A stretch of 63,278 nt of DNA, the filler included, from Collodictyon triciliatum (lineage: Eukaryota): assembly GCA_043381765.1 (NCBI GenBank). It is 8 parts of 8 records of this genome, joined end to end, with 100 filler letters (N's around TTAATTAATTAA, not from the genome) between each part and the next. Parts side by side here need not be neighbours in the genome. Positions count along the whole stretch, not along the records: positions 49,932 to 58,148 come from JBHJMP010003527.1; 7 more parts are not named here. One strand, written 5' to 3'. Positions 44,169-63,278 of the stretch are shown here, in pieces. Numbering within the stretch: position 1 is the stretch's first letter; every line of letters starts with the position of its first letter. The notes below the pieces were generated by a model. It saw only the letters and a program-made list of their open reading frames with translations. It was not told the origin of the DNA and did not search any database. The translations under genes were made by a program, and so were the position numbers.

Positions 44169-49831
<5,663 letters not shown>

Positions 49832-50983
49832 NNNNNNNNNNNNNNNNNNNNNNNNNNNNNNNNNNNNNNNNNNNNTTAATTAATTAANNNNNNNNNNNNN
49901 NNNNNNNNNNNNNNNNNNNNNNNNNNNNNNNTTTTTTAAAATTTTTTTTTTGTAAAACCCATATTCTTTTTTTTTTTTTTTTTTTTTTTTGTTGGTGAAA
50001 TATCTGTCGCTGCTTGTGCTTTTAACATAATAATGGATATCTTATCAAACCATTTCTGTTCTTTTTGTAAAAGGTCGATTGGTTTTTTAGCATCTTAAGG
50101 TGGCTTTGTATGAACTAATGTGGTACACTTTGCGCAAGGCGCTCATACTTCTGCTCGCATTAGTTTCGGGAATTTTGTATTTTGTTCAAGGTATTCGGTT
50201 GGAAATGATATTAATTCAACTTCGGCCAAGTGTGACAGCAGCATATGATTATTTTTACAACAATCGCCACCGTCCTGCGTGCATCAGAGACCCAGAGCCA
50301 GAATTAAGTACATCACAACCCAACAATCTGCTGAGTGAGGTGTTGTTGAAACTACAACACAGATGACTTCTGCATGTAGTGCAATTCTGCCACCCGTGCT
50401 TAGAAAGAAAAAAANNNNNNNNNNNNNNNNNNNNNNNNNNNNNNNNNNNNNNNNNNNNNNNNNNNNNNNNNNNNNNNNNNNNNNNNNNNNNNNNNNNNNN
50501 NNNNNNNNNNNNNNNNNNNNNNNNNNNNNNNNNNNNNNNNNNNAGAGAATGGAAAAGAGAGAATGGAAAAGAGAGAATGGAAAAGAAAAAGGAAAAAAGT
50601 CGTGGCTCATTGTCTTCCTTTATTGCCACACCATTTAGTCGATGTATTGAAATGCGAGTGATAACACTTTATTTTCATCATAAAATGGGAGCATTGGTCA
50701 TGAAGCAAACAAGGAAAAGAGGAAAAACTCCCAGCGATGATTATTTTTCTGATGTGTGTCGCAAAGAAAAAAAAAACTTCCGCAGAGCGAAAACTGTCGT
50801 AGAAAAGGTATTGCCATATCGAAAGGAGTAGTTGGCTTTCATTCATACTTCGAGTGAGATGGAAAAAATAAAGGACATATGATAGGAAGAAAATAGCGAG
50901 ATGTCAACAGAAGAGTTTTGTTGTAATTCTGTATTGAAGTGCAATCCAGTAATGAAGCTTCATTACTAGAAAATTCTAGCGAC

Positions 50984-53900
50984 CTATTCTGATAATTCAA
51001 AGGTCTCAACGGATGGCACAACCTTAATAAATGATTATTGTTAATTATTTGTGTTGTGTTGTGATTATTAAGTGAGTTTTGCCTTTACATATTCAGATAG
51101 CTTTTATCTGCATCGTGGATATAAATAAACTAATTTGACAGTGTATCCCATCTTAGACTAAATTAACTCTCGACCCTGAGATTATATTTTCAATCGAATG
51201 AAATGAGAGAAAGAGACAGACTCGATGAAAAATATTCTGAAAGATAACACGACTGCTATTTCATTACGTGGGGATATAACTCCAGTTTACGAATTTGTTC
51301 AAAATCAGGGGTTTCCGTGTCATTCCAACAAGGAAGGTTTGTCATACCAAGGGGTGCTATCCTAATACTAGACTTCCCTGTTCTATTTCTAATTTGCAAG
51401 CAACGAAGTTCAACCAGGGCTGTAATTTCGACAGGAAGTTCCCGAATCTGCACCGAGGAGAAAGAAATAATAAGAATATACCTCAAAATCGGTAAAGGAA
51501 AATATCACTTGAATGTAATCATCTTGCTTTTGGGTATCCATTTTCATGCTTAATTCGATTCGAATAAAGGGGGGGGGAAAGAAGCTCAATTCGATTCAAA
51601 GTTTTTGACATCGGATGTAGACAACCAAACCATATTGTCGCGGATGTCTAGATGCACAAGCTTCGATAAAGTCGATATCATAGGGGGCATATAATTTATC
51701 TAGATTTTAAGTTCTTTTTCTTTAAAAAAAAAACATTAGTAGTTCAGCCTTGGAAATAAAATAATTGCACCATTGTATCAAAATGTCGATGAAGAAAACC
51801 ACACCAACCGATGGAATTTTAGTGCAACTTCATTTTTGTAATTATATTATAAATCAAAGAGTAATAGTAGTGATAATAATTAAATTTTCAATTAAAAACA
51901 GAACAGAAGAATTGAAATGGAAATAATGAAAAGAAGATAAAAGAGAAAGAAAAAACGAACCAAATTGTCAGACAAGTTCAACACCAATAACTCAACCAAT
52001 GTGAAGCATGCATCGGGAAGAGATGTGAGCTTTTTTTTTTTAAAAAAAAAAGGGTTAATCGAGAGAACTACGATAACTATCATACAAAAATTGTAAAATA
52101 AAACTGACAACAGTATAATGAAACCATATAGGAAAATAATTCACCGCATTAGAATGCAAGTACAGTACTTGAAGATGCGTCAAAAATTGCAATGAATCTG
52201 GGACTTCTGAAAGTTTCATATTGGCCATCGATAAAGACTTACGACCTCGTAAGGCGTGAAACGTTGGATGATAGCAATAAGGTATCATGTCAACATTTTG
52301 ATTTCCATACATGAGATATTGTGTGGATAAGGGGCACAAATAAAAATTTTCATCTGCTTCTTTCTTGGTATTTATTAGTCCATGTAACAAAGATAGAACA
52401 CGGTCAGATAGGGAATATGCTGTTGCCATCTGCTGCTCATTCATAGAAAGAAAGTCAGCCATTCGAAATGTCTCCTTCTGGTGCGCTATTAAGTCACTTA
52501 AATCGAAGAAATCATTATCTCGAAGCCATTCCACCACCTCACCCTTATACATCGATTCCAAAGGAGAATATTGTACTGGGAGCAATTGGTTCATTTTTTC
52601 GTGTGAGATTTTGACGTTGCTGGACACCAACGCACTAATATACTCAAGTATTTGTTGTAAAGATGGCCGGAGTTTGTAATTTTGCCTCCAACACGCCTTG
52701 ATTAAGTGCTCTAATCCATCTGGCGTTTCATTGGGTAGTTCAGGTCTTAATCCCTTGATCGATAGGCTCTGTGGGTATGCTTCGTTTCGAAAAGGCTCGA
52801 CCCCAGAAAACATGTACCAAACCAGCATTCCCAAAGCATACACATTGCTCAGTTCCCCGCGATGGCCATAGCTACCTCCCCCATCCTCGTACATATCCAT
52901 GATGTCATAGTAGTAAGGCATACATGAAACTTCATGGATCTCTGGTGCTTGCCAGTTTGAAGTCCCGCCTTGTTTCCATTCCCCAAACTTTGTTGGTAGA
53001 TTAGAACCGATCTTATCAAGGCCACAGAAACTGACGATTCCAAAGTCTACAATTTTTACAGTTTCATCGATAACCATAATATTGTCATCCTTCAAATCTT
53101 CATGGAATAAGTTTTTGGAATGCATGAATATGAGAGCTTCGCATATTTGTTTTGTAAAAGAAATAATCTGGAATAACTTTGGTTTGATATTTTTCTTTTC
53201 TATCATAGTTTTTAATGAAATACCAGCATTCTCCATAACCATGTAAAAGTCATCGTCCTTGCGGTATATGCCAAATAGATTTACTATATTTTCGCATTCC
53301 CTGCATTCGTGCAGATACTTGGTCTCAAGTATGATCGATTGAATTATCTCGCTAATAGATTGCTCTCTACTCTCCTTAACTGTTTGTATTTTCACAACAG
53401 CGTTTTTCTTCTGATGAGGTAGAGTTGTATAGACTCGACCATATGTCCCCTTCCCAACATACTCTATAAGCTCTATTTTTTCGTTCATCCATAAACCCTC
53501 AAACTGACTCAAATCATGGTCAATCGATATTAGTTCGAGGGCAGTTCCGGGTTTTTGCAATTCCTTGGACTTTTTTACCTTCATCGCAGAGGTAAATCTC
53601 TTGGAAATACCTACATCAAATAAATAGGTGATTTGGCTATTAAGGAATAAAAAAAAAATGTATCATAACATTTTACTTAAATATATGGTTCTCAGAAAAT
53701 ACATGTTGAAAAAAAAAAGACCTTGTTCTAGATAAACGCGTCCTTGCTTTACTACACTGACTTCTAGATGGTGTTTTTTGGTGCATATTTTCAATTCTGA
53801 GTCATTTAATTTCGCCGATGATTCGATATGGCCATCTAAATGGTTAGATCGGCAAACTGGGCATTCGAATCGGTAGGAAATGATAAATTTTGGCCGAATA

Positions 53901-54863
53901 GATGCAATTTGTTTAATAAGGGAAGAAAGAACATCAAAAATTCGAACAATTTTGGTTGTTTGATGTATCTCGTTATCATATTTCCTAATTCTGACAGAAA
54001 TTTTAGCTTTTTGGATGTGGTACAGCACAAGAAATTCATTTCCTGGGGTAAGCTGGATTTCATTCATTTCAGCCTTGTAAAAAGCATCCAGGTGTATAAA
54101 TGCCACATCTCTGAAAAATTGATCGTCATACTGAACTCCAACTTGAGCCTCTTTTGTCAAACGTAGCGCTTGTATGATGACGTTGCTTTTATCAGAAAGC
54201 TGGAGTTCTCCATCAGTCATTATTTCTACAGATGTTTCAGAAATACAATTGGACTCTGGTTTTTCATTCCACAGTGGTCCAATATTTGAGCAATCGCTCA
54301 TCAACGAGGGAAAGGCAATGCATTCTCGGTTGAATTGAATTCCAAGGCCAAAATGGTCAAATATTTGAAGAATTGTTTTAAATACATATTCATCTAATTC
54401 TGTACTCAATTCTTGCTTGATTTGCTCGTTTAGCTTCTTTAGCAAAATAATACCACTTGTGCCCTTTCCTATTCCTTTGAAGCTGAAGACGCAACGAAAT
54501 ACGTTGATGAGAAACAGCGGGTCAAGAAATATGACATCCCTGGCGTTTTCAAATGATGAATACCAAACAACCGAGCCCAGGTCATGAAGGAATTTAAGAG
54601 CACTTTCGCACTCATTTCTGTCTATTCCCAACTGTTTTTCAGCAAAAATGTAAGTGTCATCCATTCTTTCGTACTTTAAAATTTGACCTTTTGAATCCAG
54701 ATATTCTTTCAGACCAATATATGACCTTGGGGTTTCTTTGTTCATGTTATCGAGCCTCATCATTCCTTCATATATTACTTTTTTCAGATTATTAATATTT
54801 CTTCCATTCTTGTTGCTCACCCTTAATTCTGTATTGAAAAATATATGGCGGGCTTTTTCATCG

Positions 54864-54944
<81 letters not shown>

Positions 54945-56339
54945 TTCCACCTCGATTCGCTGAATTTCTTTTTGCATCTCTAGCTTATGTACAGCGTTTT
55001 GGCAATCTTTGTGAGTACCAGCTATAATAATTTTTGAGCCGGGAGCAAAGTCATCAAGCATTTTGACCCAACGGTTGAGGTTATTTTTATCTTTGCTTTG
55101 ATCAAGTCTATATAAAATCAAAACCAGAGCTCCTGATGACAAAAAAAATGGATGCGTTACTTGAAACTCTTCTTGTCCTCCAAAGTCCCATATTCGCATA
55201 GATATCTTCGTTTTGAAAAATCCTCCCATCACTGATTCATCGATATCGACATGAGCGATGCCATCGGTGCGCTTTCTTTCATTGTCTGTTGTGCTTTTGA
55301 AAAAGAAAGACTTTTGTATGATTGATTGGAGGAGGGTTGTTTTTCCAGCCTCTCCCTCACCAAGTAACAGGAGTCTTCCTTGAGTCCATTTCACAAGTCC
55401 ATTCATAGAGTTTGCAAGGAAGTCAAAGGCAGTCTCAGAGCCATGGACTATGACGTTTTCAGGTATATTTTTGATTGGATTCCTATTGATATTCAGTCCA
55501 CTGCGAAGATATTTCATATTGGCGATGTAAGGAGGTATGATACGAATCTACATGGAAAATGATTAAGCAAAAGCAAAATTAAAATTAATTGAAAGGAAGA
55601 ATAAAAAAATGTAAAATTAAAATTACATGATGGTATTTGGTTTTTTTTTTAAAAAAAAAGAAAAGAAAACCTTGTTGTTAGATAAGTTCAGTTTCTGTAG
55701 ATTTACAAGGTTGACAAGGACATCAGGGATGTGTAAAATCTAAATGTATAATGTGATTTAAGGGTTTGACAATAGGCTAAAACATCACATTTACTACTTC
55801 TAAGAAAACATGAAATGTTCTTCGAAAGAAAATGAAGTTTATCATGAATACCTTGTTATTGGAAATATCTAGCATCATCATCAGAGTCAAGGTGCAGATG
55901 GATGTAGGAAATATTTCAAAATTTAAAGAGATTTTCATCATTAATATTTCTGCTATAACACTCCATGATTTTATTATTTATGGAATGTTTAAAGAATACC
56001 TTATTGCAGCTGATGCTGAGATATGTGAGATTTTTCAAGTGGGTAATGTTTGTTGGAAGTATGGAAATCCCAAGGCCAAAAAAGTTGAGAGATTGGAAAT
56101 TAATTTGATCCTCGGTTGGTACCCACTCAGGTGTCATAATATTACTGTCCTGTTTCATTCATACCATAGCAATAGATAAATAGATAGATAAATAGATAGA
56201 TAAATAGATAGATAAATAGATAGATAAATAGATAGATAAATAGATAGATAAATAGATAGATAAATAGATAGATAAATAGATAGATAAATAGATAGATAAA
56301 TAGATAGATAAATAGATAGATAAATAGATAAATAGATAG

Positions 56340-56370
<31 letters not shown>

Positions 56371-56692
56371 GATAAATAGATAGATAGATAAATAAAGATA
56401 AATAAATAGATAAATAAATAGATAAATAAATAAATGATTGACAAAGATAACAATCAGTTTAACCGAATATTAGAATTTTTATAATTATATACAGGAACTT
56501 CATAGAGCATCAATTTATTAATTTGATCTCTGTCATCGGACTCGTCCCAGCAAGGAAGACTTGAAATTCCACGTGGTGCTCTCTGAATGTTAACTTCACC
56601 CTCCCAATCTATGAGAAGCATCTTCAGATTTGTGAGGGATGTGATTTGCGGTGGAAGCTCCTCCATCTGTTCCAACATCGATTAATATCCAT

Positions 56693-56736
<44 letters not shown>

Positions 56737-57245
56737 TTCATAATCCCATCTTTTTTTTTCCTTTATTCGATTCAAAGATTCATAATCCCATCTTAAATGA
56801 AAATAGGATGGAAAAGTATAGAAAGAAAAGAAAAGATAAAAAGAAAATTAGGAAGAAAACTGACCGGATTCAAGTAAATATTTAGTTCTGCGAGGCCGGT
56901 TAAGTGGGATATCTCTGGCGGTAATGAAGAGAGCAAGTTGTAAGACAAAACAAGAGCTGAGAGGCTGATCAGACAGGATATTTCTGGCGGTAAGGAAGAC
57001 AGCTCATTGTTTTCGACATGCAAGTCTTCAAGGATCTCCAAACGCGATAGTTCTGCCGGCAAGGATGACAATCGATTGCCTGTGAGATTTAAGAAGCTCA
57101 AGCGAGACAGAACGAAGACACCAGGAGGCACAAACGTTAATTTTCTGGATGAGAGATCAAGCTCTGAGCAGCTTTGAAGAGTGGGTATGTCGGGGTCTCC
57201 GGTGAGTCTTCGTAGCTTCTCGAGATCCGCTAGATCATCAGACAT
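50984..57245 (-). CDS. Roco protein: LRR-Roc-COR-kinase-(SAM-like)-LRR
   Basis: Exons 56865-57245, 56493-56666, 56000-56149, (55852-55920), 55671-55739, 53722-55547, 52145-53610, 51961-52029, 51631-51699, 51268-51447, 50984-51022. Roc motifs GEGEAGKT, RTDGI, IWDFGGQEEF, GTHKD; COR motifs LKFLHDLGSVVWY and IFLDPLFL; kinase motifs GKGTYG, VVK, HEDLKDDN, DFG, APE. One frameshift at the 76-T run 54866-54941, probably an assembly error. Confidence 0.9.
51548..51601 (+). mobile_element. Possible degenerate/nested copy of the micro-element in a Roco intron
   Basis: GCT(T/C)AATTCGATTC direct repeat (51548-51561, 51584-51597) flanks GAATAAAGG-G7-AAAGAA; the right copy ends TTCGATTCAAAG. Confidence 0.45.
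56174..56430. repeat. (ATAG/ATAA)n intronic microsatellite
   Basis: Directly visible. Confidence 0.95.
56736..56794 (-). mobile_element. Micro-insertion copy 3 in Roco intron 1, 17-bp TSD ATTCATAATCCCATCTT
   Basis: Perfect direct repeat at 56736-56752 and 56778-56794 flanks T-run + CCTTTATTCGATTCAAAG. Confidence 0.9.
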
Positions 57246-58020
57246 CGGGAATAGAAAAGAAGCTCGGCACTGGGGCTGGAGGTGGTTTCTAGGTTGAAAG
57301 TTTCCTCCATCTTAATTCTTTTTCTTTTTCTTATTCTTATTCTTTTTCTTTTTCTTTTTCTTTTTCTTTTTCTTTTTTTCTCTTTTTCTTTTTCTATTCC
57401 TATTTCTTTCATTTTGTAAAAGAAAATAAAATAGCTCAGCGTGGCCAGCGCGTTAGTCTGTCACAAAACACGTAATGGCCTTCGGTTGCGTTGAGGTGGG
57501 ATGGATGTCATAAAGACCGTACATAATATTCTAACAATATTTATTTTGACTAATAATGTGAATGAATACCCGCAATATATAAGAAATATATAATTTTATT
57601 TAATTTTCCGCATTTGATAAATCGACACCAGCCGTCATGGAGCCTTTGTTCTGGAGCGAGAAATCAGGCGACTAATTGCGGCACACGCCCGATTATTTTA
57701 CCATAAGAAGGATTCGTTGAGCCAATCTTCTGGTTGATTCAATGATTATTCATTTAGTATTTCTTTAATTAGATTTCATACGAAACTTTATCTATTTTAA
57801 TCGAAGTAATCCCGTTTTTGTTGTTTTGCTCGTGTCGCACACAATTGTGGAATAGCCTTTGAGACACTCTTCTTGTGCGACGCGGCTCATGTTGTGAAGG
57901 AGACGGGCGACCCTTCAATAACCGAGAAAAGATTTCTTTAAAAAGGGTGCTACCATTGTGGTTCTAGTGGGTGGGGTGTGACGAAGGACTAAGTGATGGC
58001 GGTGTTGATGGCCGTCGTTC

Positions 58021-58148
58021 ATTCTCTCTATTCTCTTCATTCTCTTCATTCTCTTCATTCTCTTCATTCTCTTCATTCTCTTCATTCTCTTCATTCTCTT
58101 CATTCTCTTCATTCTCTTCATTCTCTTCATTCTCTTCATTCTCTTCAT
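58021..58148. repeat. (TTCTCTTCA)n repeat at contig end
   Basis: Directly visible. Confidence 0.95.
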
Positions 58149-62618: not shown

Positions 62619-63278
62619 TTATTATATTGGAGAGGCGTGCCAACATCTTCACCATCCTGCACAAAATTGAAAGGAAGAATAAAAAAAAAAATTATTGGAG
62701 AGGCGAGCAGAACGGAGTGGCTTCTATCACTATACAGTTTTTCTTATTCAACAAGATCGCCACAAATTTATCCAGACTAACTATAAAAATCGACTTCTTT
62801 AAACATATGCATGCAGTTTGACATCAGCAAGATTCTATGCATCGATAATATATGGAGAAAGGTTGGCCTTTTTACCCAGACGGATAATTTCTTTAAATTG
62901 GCTTTCGATGATAGAAAAAAACCTATAATGTAGAGTAAAACATAAAACTGACAAAACCGTGCATGCAGCCATTCCTTTTCAATATGAAATGTTTTAGGTA
63001 CACTCAGGATGTGAGCCGCAGAATACAAAGTCGCTCGACAAACCGATATTTTATAGAGAAGATTTTCGTCAGGCATATTCTGTAAACTCAAATCTAACCA
63101 CGGAGGTTGAGGCTCAACCTATCGATTATGTTTGTGAAAAACTTGCGCCTATTTAAAACTCATACGTTTTAAATCTTTCCATTTCCTTACCCTTTTTTTT
63201 TTTTTTTTTAATTTTTTTGGTGTTTTAACAAAAATATCAATTTATTTTTTAGTATTTTAATTTTTTTATATAAAAAAA

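What the first reader, a model, noticed from the sequence alone, without database searches (positions are those of the whole stretch)
56736..56794. An 18-nt + poly(A) micro-retroelement with target-site duplications, recurring in three unrelated contigs
Seen: (T)n-CCTTTATTCGATTCAAAG (minus strand CTTTGAATCGAATAAAGG-(A)8-10, containing AATAAA just before the tail) occurs identically at 37619-37647, ~49552-49577 and ~56751-56777. Each copy sits between a different direct repeat: 14 bp TTGGACAGATAAAT, 16 bp GTA(A/G)TTAAGGAAAGTT, and 17 bp ATTCATAATCCCATCTT. All three begin at exactly the same base. Established: a poly(A) tail plus variable 10-20 bp TSDs is the signature of target-primed reverse transcription by LINE machinery. 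Inference: this is either an ultra-short non-autonomous retroposon, far shorter than typical SINEs, templated by a discrete ~18-nt polyadenylated RNA, or a LINE/SINE 3' end that truncates at a fixed point rather than randomly. Three copies in ~63 kb of unlinked contigs suggest a high genome-wide copy number. Two of the three lie in introns of LRR genes, in sense orientation.
Basis: partly seen in the sequence, partly recalled or inferred. Interest (0 to 1): 0.88.

Follow-up and report, generated by a model that had tools for sequence, protein, structure and literature searches.

The report
Fixed 18-base LINE-tail retro-insertions
A short insert, the last 18 bases of a LINE retrotransposon plus a poly(A) tail, has been pasted repeatedly into this protist-like genome and is always cut off at the same base, which ordinary LINE copying does not explain.

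Summary
Three identical copies of (T)n-CCTTTATTCGATTCAAAG sit between different 14-17 bp direct repeats, in three separate N-delimited pieces of the window. I found a fourth, older copy with a decayed 16-bp duplication at 26675-26729. A fifth copy at 40751-40773 matches 17 of 18 bases, has a short tail and has no duplication.

A polarity-aware scan found 5 tailed, duplication-flanked short inserts and 0 in the wrong-polarity control. The target sites read T-rich|A. Together these point to target-primed reverse transcription.

The source is probably a LINE. One metagenome contig, L008, carries the same T10 + 18-mer. On its opposite strand this follows an open reading frame with the zf-RVT domain and about 75 nt of 3' UTR. 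Remote full-length relatives of that frame have an endonuclease, a reverse transcriptase and zf-RVT.

All five window copies start at the same base (±1), and none is longer or shorter. The cause is unresolved; no RNA structure explains it. A genome-wide count, the partner LINE in this genome and any RNA evidence could not be obtained.

Verdict: a new variant of a known kind, and moderately interesting.

The parts
37605..37661 (-). Micro-insert 1. On the + strand: 14-bp duplication (37605-37618), A, T10 (37620-37629), the 18-mer (37630-37647), 14-bp duplication (37648-37661).
   Evidence: It lies about 230 nt downstream of the + strand ORF that ends at 37375 and is antisense to it.
49538..49593 (-). 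Micro-insert 2: 16-bp duplication (15 of 16 bases match), T6, the 18-mer (49560-49577). It sits about 10 nt inside a putative intron of a minus-strand LRR-like gene, in sense orientation.
56736..56794 (-). Micro-insert 3, the reported one: 17-bp duplication (21 bp if the AAAG microhomology is counted), T7, the 18-mer (56760-56777). It lies in an intron of the minus-strand LRR-Roc-COR-kinase gene, in sense orientation, next to an A39 run (56696-56734).
26675..26729 (-). Older micro-insert: AGCACACCAATATGAT / AGCACACTTATATGAT (14 of 16 bases match), tail TTTTC, body GTTTTATTCGATTCAAAT (15 of 18). The 5' boundary is the same as in the exact copies.
40751..40773 (-). A copy matching 17 of 18 bases (CCTTCATTCGATTCAAAG), preceded by TTTTA, with no detectable duplication. 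Similarity to the other copies stops at the same base.
51545..51601 (-). Two direct partial copies (GCTTAATTCGATTCGAATAAAG and GCTCAATTCGATTCAAAG) separated by a G-rich spacer, with no tail and no duplication. They lie in a likely intron of the same minus-strand gene. Unexplained.
1589..1651 (-). A different short tailed insert: 16-bp duplication (14 of 16 match), T9, and a 22-nt body that ends in GGAATAAAGCC on the minus strand.
62625..62705 (+). A different short tailed insert in plus sense: 13-bp duplication TATTGGAGAGGCG, a 43-nt body ending in AAGAAT, then A11.

Best explanation
These are target-primed reverse-transcription insertions made by an endonuclease-bearing (APE-type, L1-like) LINE. 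Each insert consists only of the last 18 nt of the LINE RNA (CTTTGAATCGAATAAAGG, which holds its AATAAA signal) plus the poly(A) tail.

Shown: the tail polarity, independent duplications of 14-17 bp, T-rich|A target sites, and the identity of the 18-mer + tail to the 3' end of an RT-family open reading frame's 3' UTR in contig L008.

Inferred: the reverse transcriptase primes on the poly(A) tail and copies 18 nt. The cDNA then ends at a fixed point. Either the template is a discrete 3' fragment of the LINE RNA (cut or trimmed to what the bound enzyme protects), or the enzyme has a strong stop or template jump at that position. Which of these holds is not known.
For: Three exact copies and one decayed copy have different flanking duplications that abut the same first base. 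A fifth copy (17 of 18 bases) ends at the same base.

Among 23 window matches to the 18-mer with up to 5 mismatches, only 5 have a flanking repeat score of 8 or more. Four of those are this family and one is the 22-nt insert at 1589-1651.

A polarity-aware scan of 294 homopolymer runs found 5 tailed, duplication-flanked inserts. The same runs read in the wrong polarity gave 0.

In sense orientation the targets read TTT|AAGA, TTC|AACT, TAT|AATT and TTTT|ATCA (read). This resembles the L1 endonuclease preference TT|AAAA, which I recall rather than take from a call.

Of 35 metagenome loci holding the exact 18-mer, only L008 also has the T-run. Its opposite strand encodes an open frame matching zf-RVT (E=1.5e-7, 32.4 bits against a cut-off of 27.5). 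That frame is followed by a stop, about 75 nt, the 18-mer and A10.

A profile of this frame and its 6 relatives reaches proteins of 1226-1275 aa. All 4 that were scanned have Exo_endo_phos and RVT_1, and 3 of the 4 have a weak zf-RVT match.

No copy in the window extends beyond 18 nt into the L008 UTR. No shorter tailed prefix with a duplication was found.
Against: - L008 is a single 1157-nt metagenome contig, and it is not shown to come from the window's organism.
- No second long copy could be obtained.
- No RT or endonuclease domain was found in the 34 window ORFs scanned. Twenty-seven of these came from the 93 frames of at least 100 aa listed. tblastn with the L008 frame found nothing better than E=2.4.
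- A fixed 5' end is not what LINE truncation normally gives, and nothing in the sequence explains it. The last 159 nt of the L008 transcript fold no better than shuffles (z=-0.51). The 18-mer is predicted to be unstructured. No tRNA-like or Rfam element was found.
- The copy at 40751-40773 has no duplication, and the partial copies at 51545-51601 have no tail.
- The sample is 5 copies.
Confidence: 0.62

Rival explanations
1. A discrete small RNA with its own gene, unrelated to the LINE, is polyadenylated and copied in trans by LINE machinery. On this reading it would be a true 18-nt non-autonomous retroposon. The L008 arrangement would be a chimera formed by template switching, or a capture of this module by the LINE.
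For: All five copies share one 5' end. The copy at 40751-40773 has no duplication and only a short interrupted tail (TTTTA), so it could be a source locus. In L008 the base composition switches exactly at the 18-mer boundary.
Against: Eighteen nucleotides cannot hold an internal Pol III promoter. No tRNA, 7SL, 5S or other Rfam family was found at or near any copy. The 40756 copy carries AATGAA instead of AATAAA, and its surroundings fold no better than shuffles (z=-0.13). The L008 junction has no duplication around the 18-mer, so it is not a nested insertion.
Confidence: 0.15
2. The 18-mer is a spliced leader or common 5' leader. Either the plus-strand reading ends in AG, or the minus-strand reading is followed by GT at 40756. 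Its genomic copies would then be relics of retroposed trans-spliced RNAs.
For: The plus-strand reading ends in ...CAAAG and follows a pyrimidine run. On the minus strand, the copy at 40756 is followed by GTAAAAG. Short spliced leaders exist in other eukaryotes (passages of PMC6053224).
Against: The variable-length run, the duplications and the T-rich|A targets fit a poly(A) tail on the minus strand, not a leader on the plus strand. In L008 the 18-mer follows a LINE 3' UTR on the coding strand. No copy is followed by a structured, Sm-site-bearing intron. The ATG next to the 51553 copy lies inside a gene's likely intron. The only rhizarian leader I read about is unrelated in sequence.
Confidence: 0.04
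3. The inserts are an assembly, library or adapter artefact, or ordinary randomly truncated LINE ends that happen to look alike.
For: The assembly is fragmented and rich in homopolymers and microsatellites. Raw reads of the source were not available.
Against: An adapter cannot create different flanking duplications. One copy is old, with a mutated body and mutated duplication. An independent metagenome assembly holds the same T10 + 18-mer. Five independent copies ending at one base out of at least 93 possible UTR positions cannot be chance.
Confidence: 0.03

Closest known systems
5'-truncated ('dead on arrival') copies of L1-like, APE-endonuclease LINEs
   Same: Poly(A) tail, duplications of variable length (13-17 bp here), T-rich|A target, and identity to the 3' end of an RT-family element.
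   Different: Truncation points of LINE copies are normally scattered and the copies are hundreds of bases long (my recollection). Here 5 of 5 copies stop at the same base, 18 nt from the tail, and none is longer.
SINEs that share the 3' tail of a partner LINE. The eel UnaL2/UnaSINE1 pair is the example I recall; no paper was read for it.
   Same: A discrete unit with a constant 5' end whose 3' end equals a LINE's 3' end. It is non-coding and presumably mobilised by the LINE's enzyme.
   Different: It has no Pol III-derived head and no room for one. At 18 nt it is far below the roughly 70-nt lower end of SINE lengths, which I also recall. How it would be transcribed as a unit is unknown.
Short processed-RNA retrocopies made in trans by LINE machinery (processed pseudogene fragments, and the U6/L1 chimeras named in a listing title, PMC4476161)
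   Same: The two other tailed inserts in the window, with bodies of 22 and 43 nt, look like such one-off events.
   Different: The 18-mer family recurs with the same body five times, which one-off retrocopies do not do.

Membership tests
Insertion made by an APE-type (L1-like) LINE through target-primed reverse transcription | A 3' poly(A) tail of variable length on one defined strand | tested here: met
   Net tails are 10, 6 and 7, and 4-5 in the two older copies. All lie on the minus strand.
Insertion made by an APE-type (L1-like) LINE through target-primed reverse transcription | Target-site duplications of variable length and sequence directly abutting the insert | tested here: met
   Four of 5 copies have duplications of 14-17 bp. 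The wrong-polarity control gave 0. One copy (40751-40773) has none.
Insertion made by an APE-type (L1-like) LINE through target-primed reverse transcription | T-rich|A-rich nick site | tested here: inconclusive
   The four sites read TTT|AAGA, TTC|AACT, TAT|AATT and TTTT|ATCA. Four sites in a genome that is 65% A+T are too few for a test.
Insertion made by an APE-type (L1-like) LINE through target-primed reverse transcription | The body is identical to the 3' end of an RT-encoding element | tested here: met
   L008 has a zf-RVT open frame, about 75 nt, the 18-mer and A10. Remote full-length relatives have Exo_endo_phos and RVT_1. This rests on one contig of unproven organismal origin.
Insertion made by an APE-type (L1-like) LINE through target-primed reverse transcription | An autonomous partner element present in the same genome | not testable with these tools
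   No genome is held. The window ORFs scanned hold no RT or endonuclease domain, and tblastn found nothing.
Insertion made by an APE-type (L1-like) LINE through target-primed reverse transcription | Scattered 5' truncation points | tested here: not met
   Five of 5 copies end at the same base (±1). None is longer or shorter.
SINE | A head derived from tRNA, 7SL or 5S RNA with an internal Pol III promoter | tested here: not met
   The body is only 18 nt. Rfam found no family in the window at gathering thresholds. ARAGORN's only call in the window is at 55618-55706, away from all copies.
SINE | A discrete unit with a constant 5' end and the partner LINE's 3' tail | tested here: met
Spliced-leader RNA gene or relic leader | A leader followed by a GT donor, a structured intron and an Sm site in a gene copy; and the leader present on mRNA 5' ends | tested here: not met
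   Only the 40756 copy is followed by GT. Its fold is no better than shuffles (z=-0.13) and it has no Rfam match. Presence on mRNA 5' ends could not be tested, because no RNA run was available.

The most novel reading that the evidence does not exclude
The 18 nt plus poly(A) form a self-sufficient retrotransposition unit. On this reading a discrete 18-nt polyadenylated RNA is the real template. It would be processed from the LINE's 3' end or left as the stretch that the bound reverse transcriptase protects from decay. It would be the shortest recurrent retroposon known. It would also show that this LINE's enzyme needs no more than 18 nt plus the tail, and that it seeds AATAAA signals in sense orientation inside introns across the genome.
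Probability: 0.3. Interest if true: 0.75.

Novelty: new variant of a known kind. Interest (0 to 1): 0.55.

Why it matters
LINE copies are expected to be cut off at scattered points. A family that always stops 18 nt from the tail would mark a defined step in target-primed reverse transcription: a template end, a strong stop or an enzyme footprint. That would give a natural read-out of how much 3' sequence a LINE enzyme needs.

It would also extend the lower size limit of recurrent retroposons well below that of SINEs. Each copy carries AATAAA, and at least two lie in sense orientation in introns, so a high copy number could affect premature polyadenylation of host genes. None of this is yet shown beyond five copies in 62.5 kb.

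Tried and rejected
- Whole-genome census: no genome is held for this window.
- Sequencing runs: no RNA holder was listed. Two freshwater-metagenome runs hold small shares of the stretch (0.12 and 0.06), and two further runs of one study were added. Laying all four on 49932-58148 placed 21, 17, 4 and 3 records, with no joints. No listed piece spanned the insert, so nothing was learnt about empty sites or read support.
- Other collections: scans of genome contigs and viral contigs with T5 + the 18-mer gave 0 hits each.
- Chance hits: 34 of the 35 metagenome loci holding the 18-mer have no T-run and unrelated contexts.
- Longer relatives by word search: none.
- A structure that would stop the enzyme or be recognised by it: the folds of the L008 3' end and of the 18-mer are unremarkable. 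No tRNA-like element. The Rfam E-value scan of L008 gave only two weak lncRNA matches.
- Spliced-leader RNA gene at 40756: not supported.
- Paralogous empty sites inside the window: only self matches for sites 1 and 2. The rest of the output was swamped by homopolymers.
- Literature: a full-text search for the motif on both strands found one unrelated paper holding the 13-mer (listing only). Three searches for fixed or extreme LINE truncation and for the shortest SINEs returned no title or abstract start describing such a family (listings only). A search on one candidate organism name gave 7 listings. Of these I read passages of PMC6053224 only. Supplements were not consulted.
- Organism: I guessed at it but could not verify the guess, so I do not name it.

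Full report
**What is there**

The window is not one stretch of genome. It is eight pieces (seven of about 8.2 kb and a last one of about 5 kb) joined by N44-TTAATTAATTAA-N44 spacers. It is about 35% G+C.

It encodes protist-like multidomain proteins. These include a 2041-aa NACHT-pentapeptide-WD40 frame, a WD40/Ephrin_rec_like frame, and a minus-strand LRR-Roc-COR-kinase gene. The best relatives of the kinase are unnamed EukProt transcriptome proteins at 46% identity. No whole genome is held for the window.

CCTTTATTCGATTCAAAG occurs exactly three times, at 37630, 49560 and 56760, all on the + strand. Allowing up to 3 mismatches gave 9 matches where 0.32 were expected, and 0 of 100 shuffles reached 9. 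Each exact copy follows a T-run and lies between a direct repeat that differs from site to site. The repeats are 14 bp, 16 bp (15 of 16 matching) and 17 bp. The observation therefore stands.

**More copies**

The 13-base core occurs six times with up to 1 mismatch, always on the + strand.

I scored flanking repeats around all 23 window matches to the 18-mer with up to 5 mismatches. Five stood out, and the rest scored 0 or below. They are:
- the three exact copies;
- an older copy at 26675-26729, with a 16-bp repeat matching at 14 of 16, tail TTTTC, and a body matching 15 of 18;
- a different insert at 1589-1651, with a 16-bp repeat matching at 14 of 16, T9, and a 22-nt body.

A fifth family member at 40751-40773 matches 17 of 18 bases. 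It has a short TTTTA tail and no repeat. Two tail-less partial copies lie side by side at 51545-51601, inside a likely intron of the LRR-Roc-COR-kinase gene. I cannot explain them.

**Is it target-primed reverse transcription?**

I scanned every homopolymer run of 6 or more for the layout repeat | run | body | repeat.
- In the polarity expected for a poly(A) tail, 5 of 294 runs qualified. These were the three exact copies, the 22-nt insert, and a plus-sense 43-nt insert at 62625-62705.
- Reading the same 294 runs in the wrong polarity gave 0.

In sense (minus-strand) orientation the four family targets read TTT|AAGA, TTC|AACT, TAT|AATT and TTTT|ATCA. This resembles the TT|AAAA preference of L1 endonuclease, which I recall rather than take from a call. 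Four sites in an A+T-rich genome are too few to test it.

The different repeats and flanks show that the copies are independent insertions. The decayed copy shows that the family has a history in the genome.

**Where the 18-mer comes from**

One scan of public metagenome contigs with the exact 18-mer returned 35 loci. Thirty-four are unrelated chance matches without a T-run. One, L008 (1157 nt), has T10 + the 18-mer.

On its opposite strand L008 carries an open frame running off the contig end. That frame matches Pfam zf-RVT (E=1.5e-7, 32.4 bits against a cut-off of 27.5).

Alignment with its six relatives shows that the L008 frame is shifted once. Those relatives are 59-99% identical by BLASTP and all come from short ENA, JGI or Logan contigs. 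The frame continues in a second reading frame to a stop at L008 205-207. From there the order is about 75 nt of 3' UTR, the 18-mer (129-112), A10 (111-102), and then A+T-rich flank. No repeat brackets the 18-mer in L008, so it is not a nested micro-insert.

A profile search over 1.84 billion representatives found 50 proteins at E ≤ 0.001. They include frames of 964-1339 aa that match at their C-termini. All four that I scanned have Exo_endo_phos and RVT_1. Three have a weak zf-RVT match.

The 18-mer + tail is therefore the 3' end of an endonuclease/RT LINE, at least in that contig.

**The odd part**

Nothing in the window matches the L008 UTR beyond the 18-mer. No shorter tailed prefix with a repeat exists. 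All five tailed copies lose similarity to one another and to L008 at the same base. One more base is ambiguous in two copies, and site 3 has a 4-base microhomology.

If truncation were random over even the 93-nt UTR, four further copies hitting the endpoint of the first would have odds near 1e-8.

I looked for a cause and found none:
- The last 159 nt of the L008 transcript fold no better than shuffles (z=-0.51).
- The 18-mer alone is predicted to be unstructured.
- There is no tRNA-like element.
- There is no Rfam family.

The remaining possibilities are all inferences. One is a discrete 3' RNA fragment, either cleaved or trimmed back to what the tail-bound enzyme protects. The other is a strong stop or template jump at nucleotide 18.

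**Rivals**

- A spliced-leader reading was attractive at first, because the + strand ends in AG after a pyrimidine run and the 40756 copy is followed by GT on the minus strand. It fails on tail polarity, on the L008 context and on the lack of any spliced-leader-RNA-like structure. The one rhizarian leader I read about is unrelated in sequence (passages of PMC6053224).
- An independent small-RNA gene cannot be excluded, but it has no promoter-bearing head.
- An artefact is excluded by the differing repeats, the decayed copy and the independent contig.

**Limits**

- L008 is one contig of unproven origin.
- No RT was found among the 34 window ORFs scanned. Twenty-seven of these came from the 93 frames of at least 100 aa.
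- Copy number, empty sites and RNA evidence could not be obtained.
- The literature searches showed no description of such a family, but I saw only listings and no supplements.

**Verdict**

This is a real, recurrent product of target-primed reverse transcription. It is best read as a LINE 3' tail with a fixed 18-nt boundary. It is a new variant of a known kind and moderately interesting. Interest would rise if a genome-wide census and RNA data show a discrete template.

Noticed in passing
window 1525-1565, 8325-8399, 26034-26114, 44801-44894, 54866-54941, 56696-56734: Very long pure A or T runs of 39-94 bases. None has a flanking repeat in the scan. The run at 54866-54941 reads as a poly-lysine stretch inside the minus-strand open frame between the Roc and COR segments.
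   Followed up: partly
window 1589-1651 and 62625-62705: Two other short poly(A)-tailed, repeat-flanked inserts with unrelated bodies of 22 and 43 nt. Each is unique in the window, and both end near a GAATAAA-like signal.
   Followed up: partly
window 55618-55706: ARAGORN calls an 89-nt 'tRNA-Stop' with anticodon tta. The Rfam gathering scan found no tRNA in the window, so this is probably a false call in A+T-rich sequence.
   Followed up: no
window 1461-7700: An uninterrupted frame of about 2040-2080 aa combining NACHT, pentapeptide repeats and WD40 propellers.
   Followed up: no
window piece ends, e.g. 8200-8224, 16648-16750, 41480-41511, 58000-58148: Many pieces begin or end in microsatellites or homopolymers. 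This suggests that assembly breaks at simple repeats.
   Followed up: no
window 49538-49577: At site 2 the left repeat starts with GT and the insert ends in AG on the + strand. Repeat plus insert therefore form a 40-nt GT...AG unit. The host gene is on the other strand, so this is probably coincidence.
   Followed up: no
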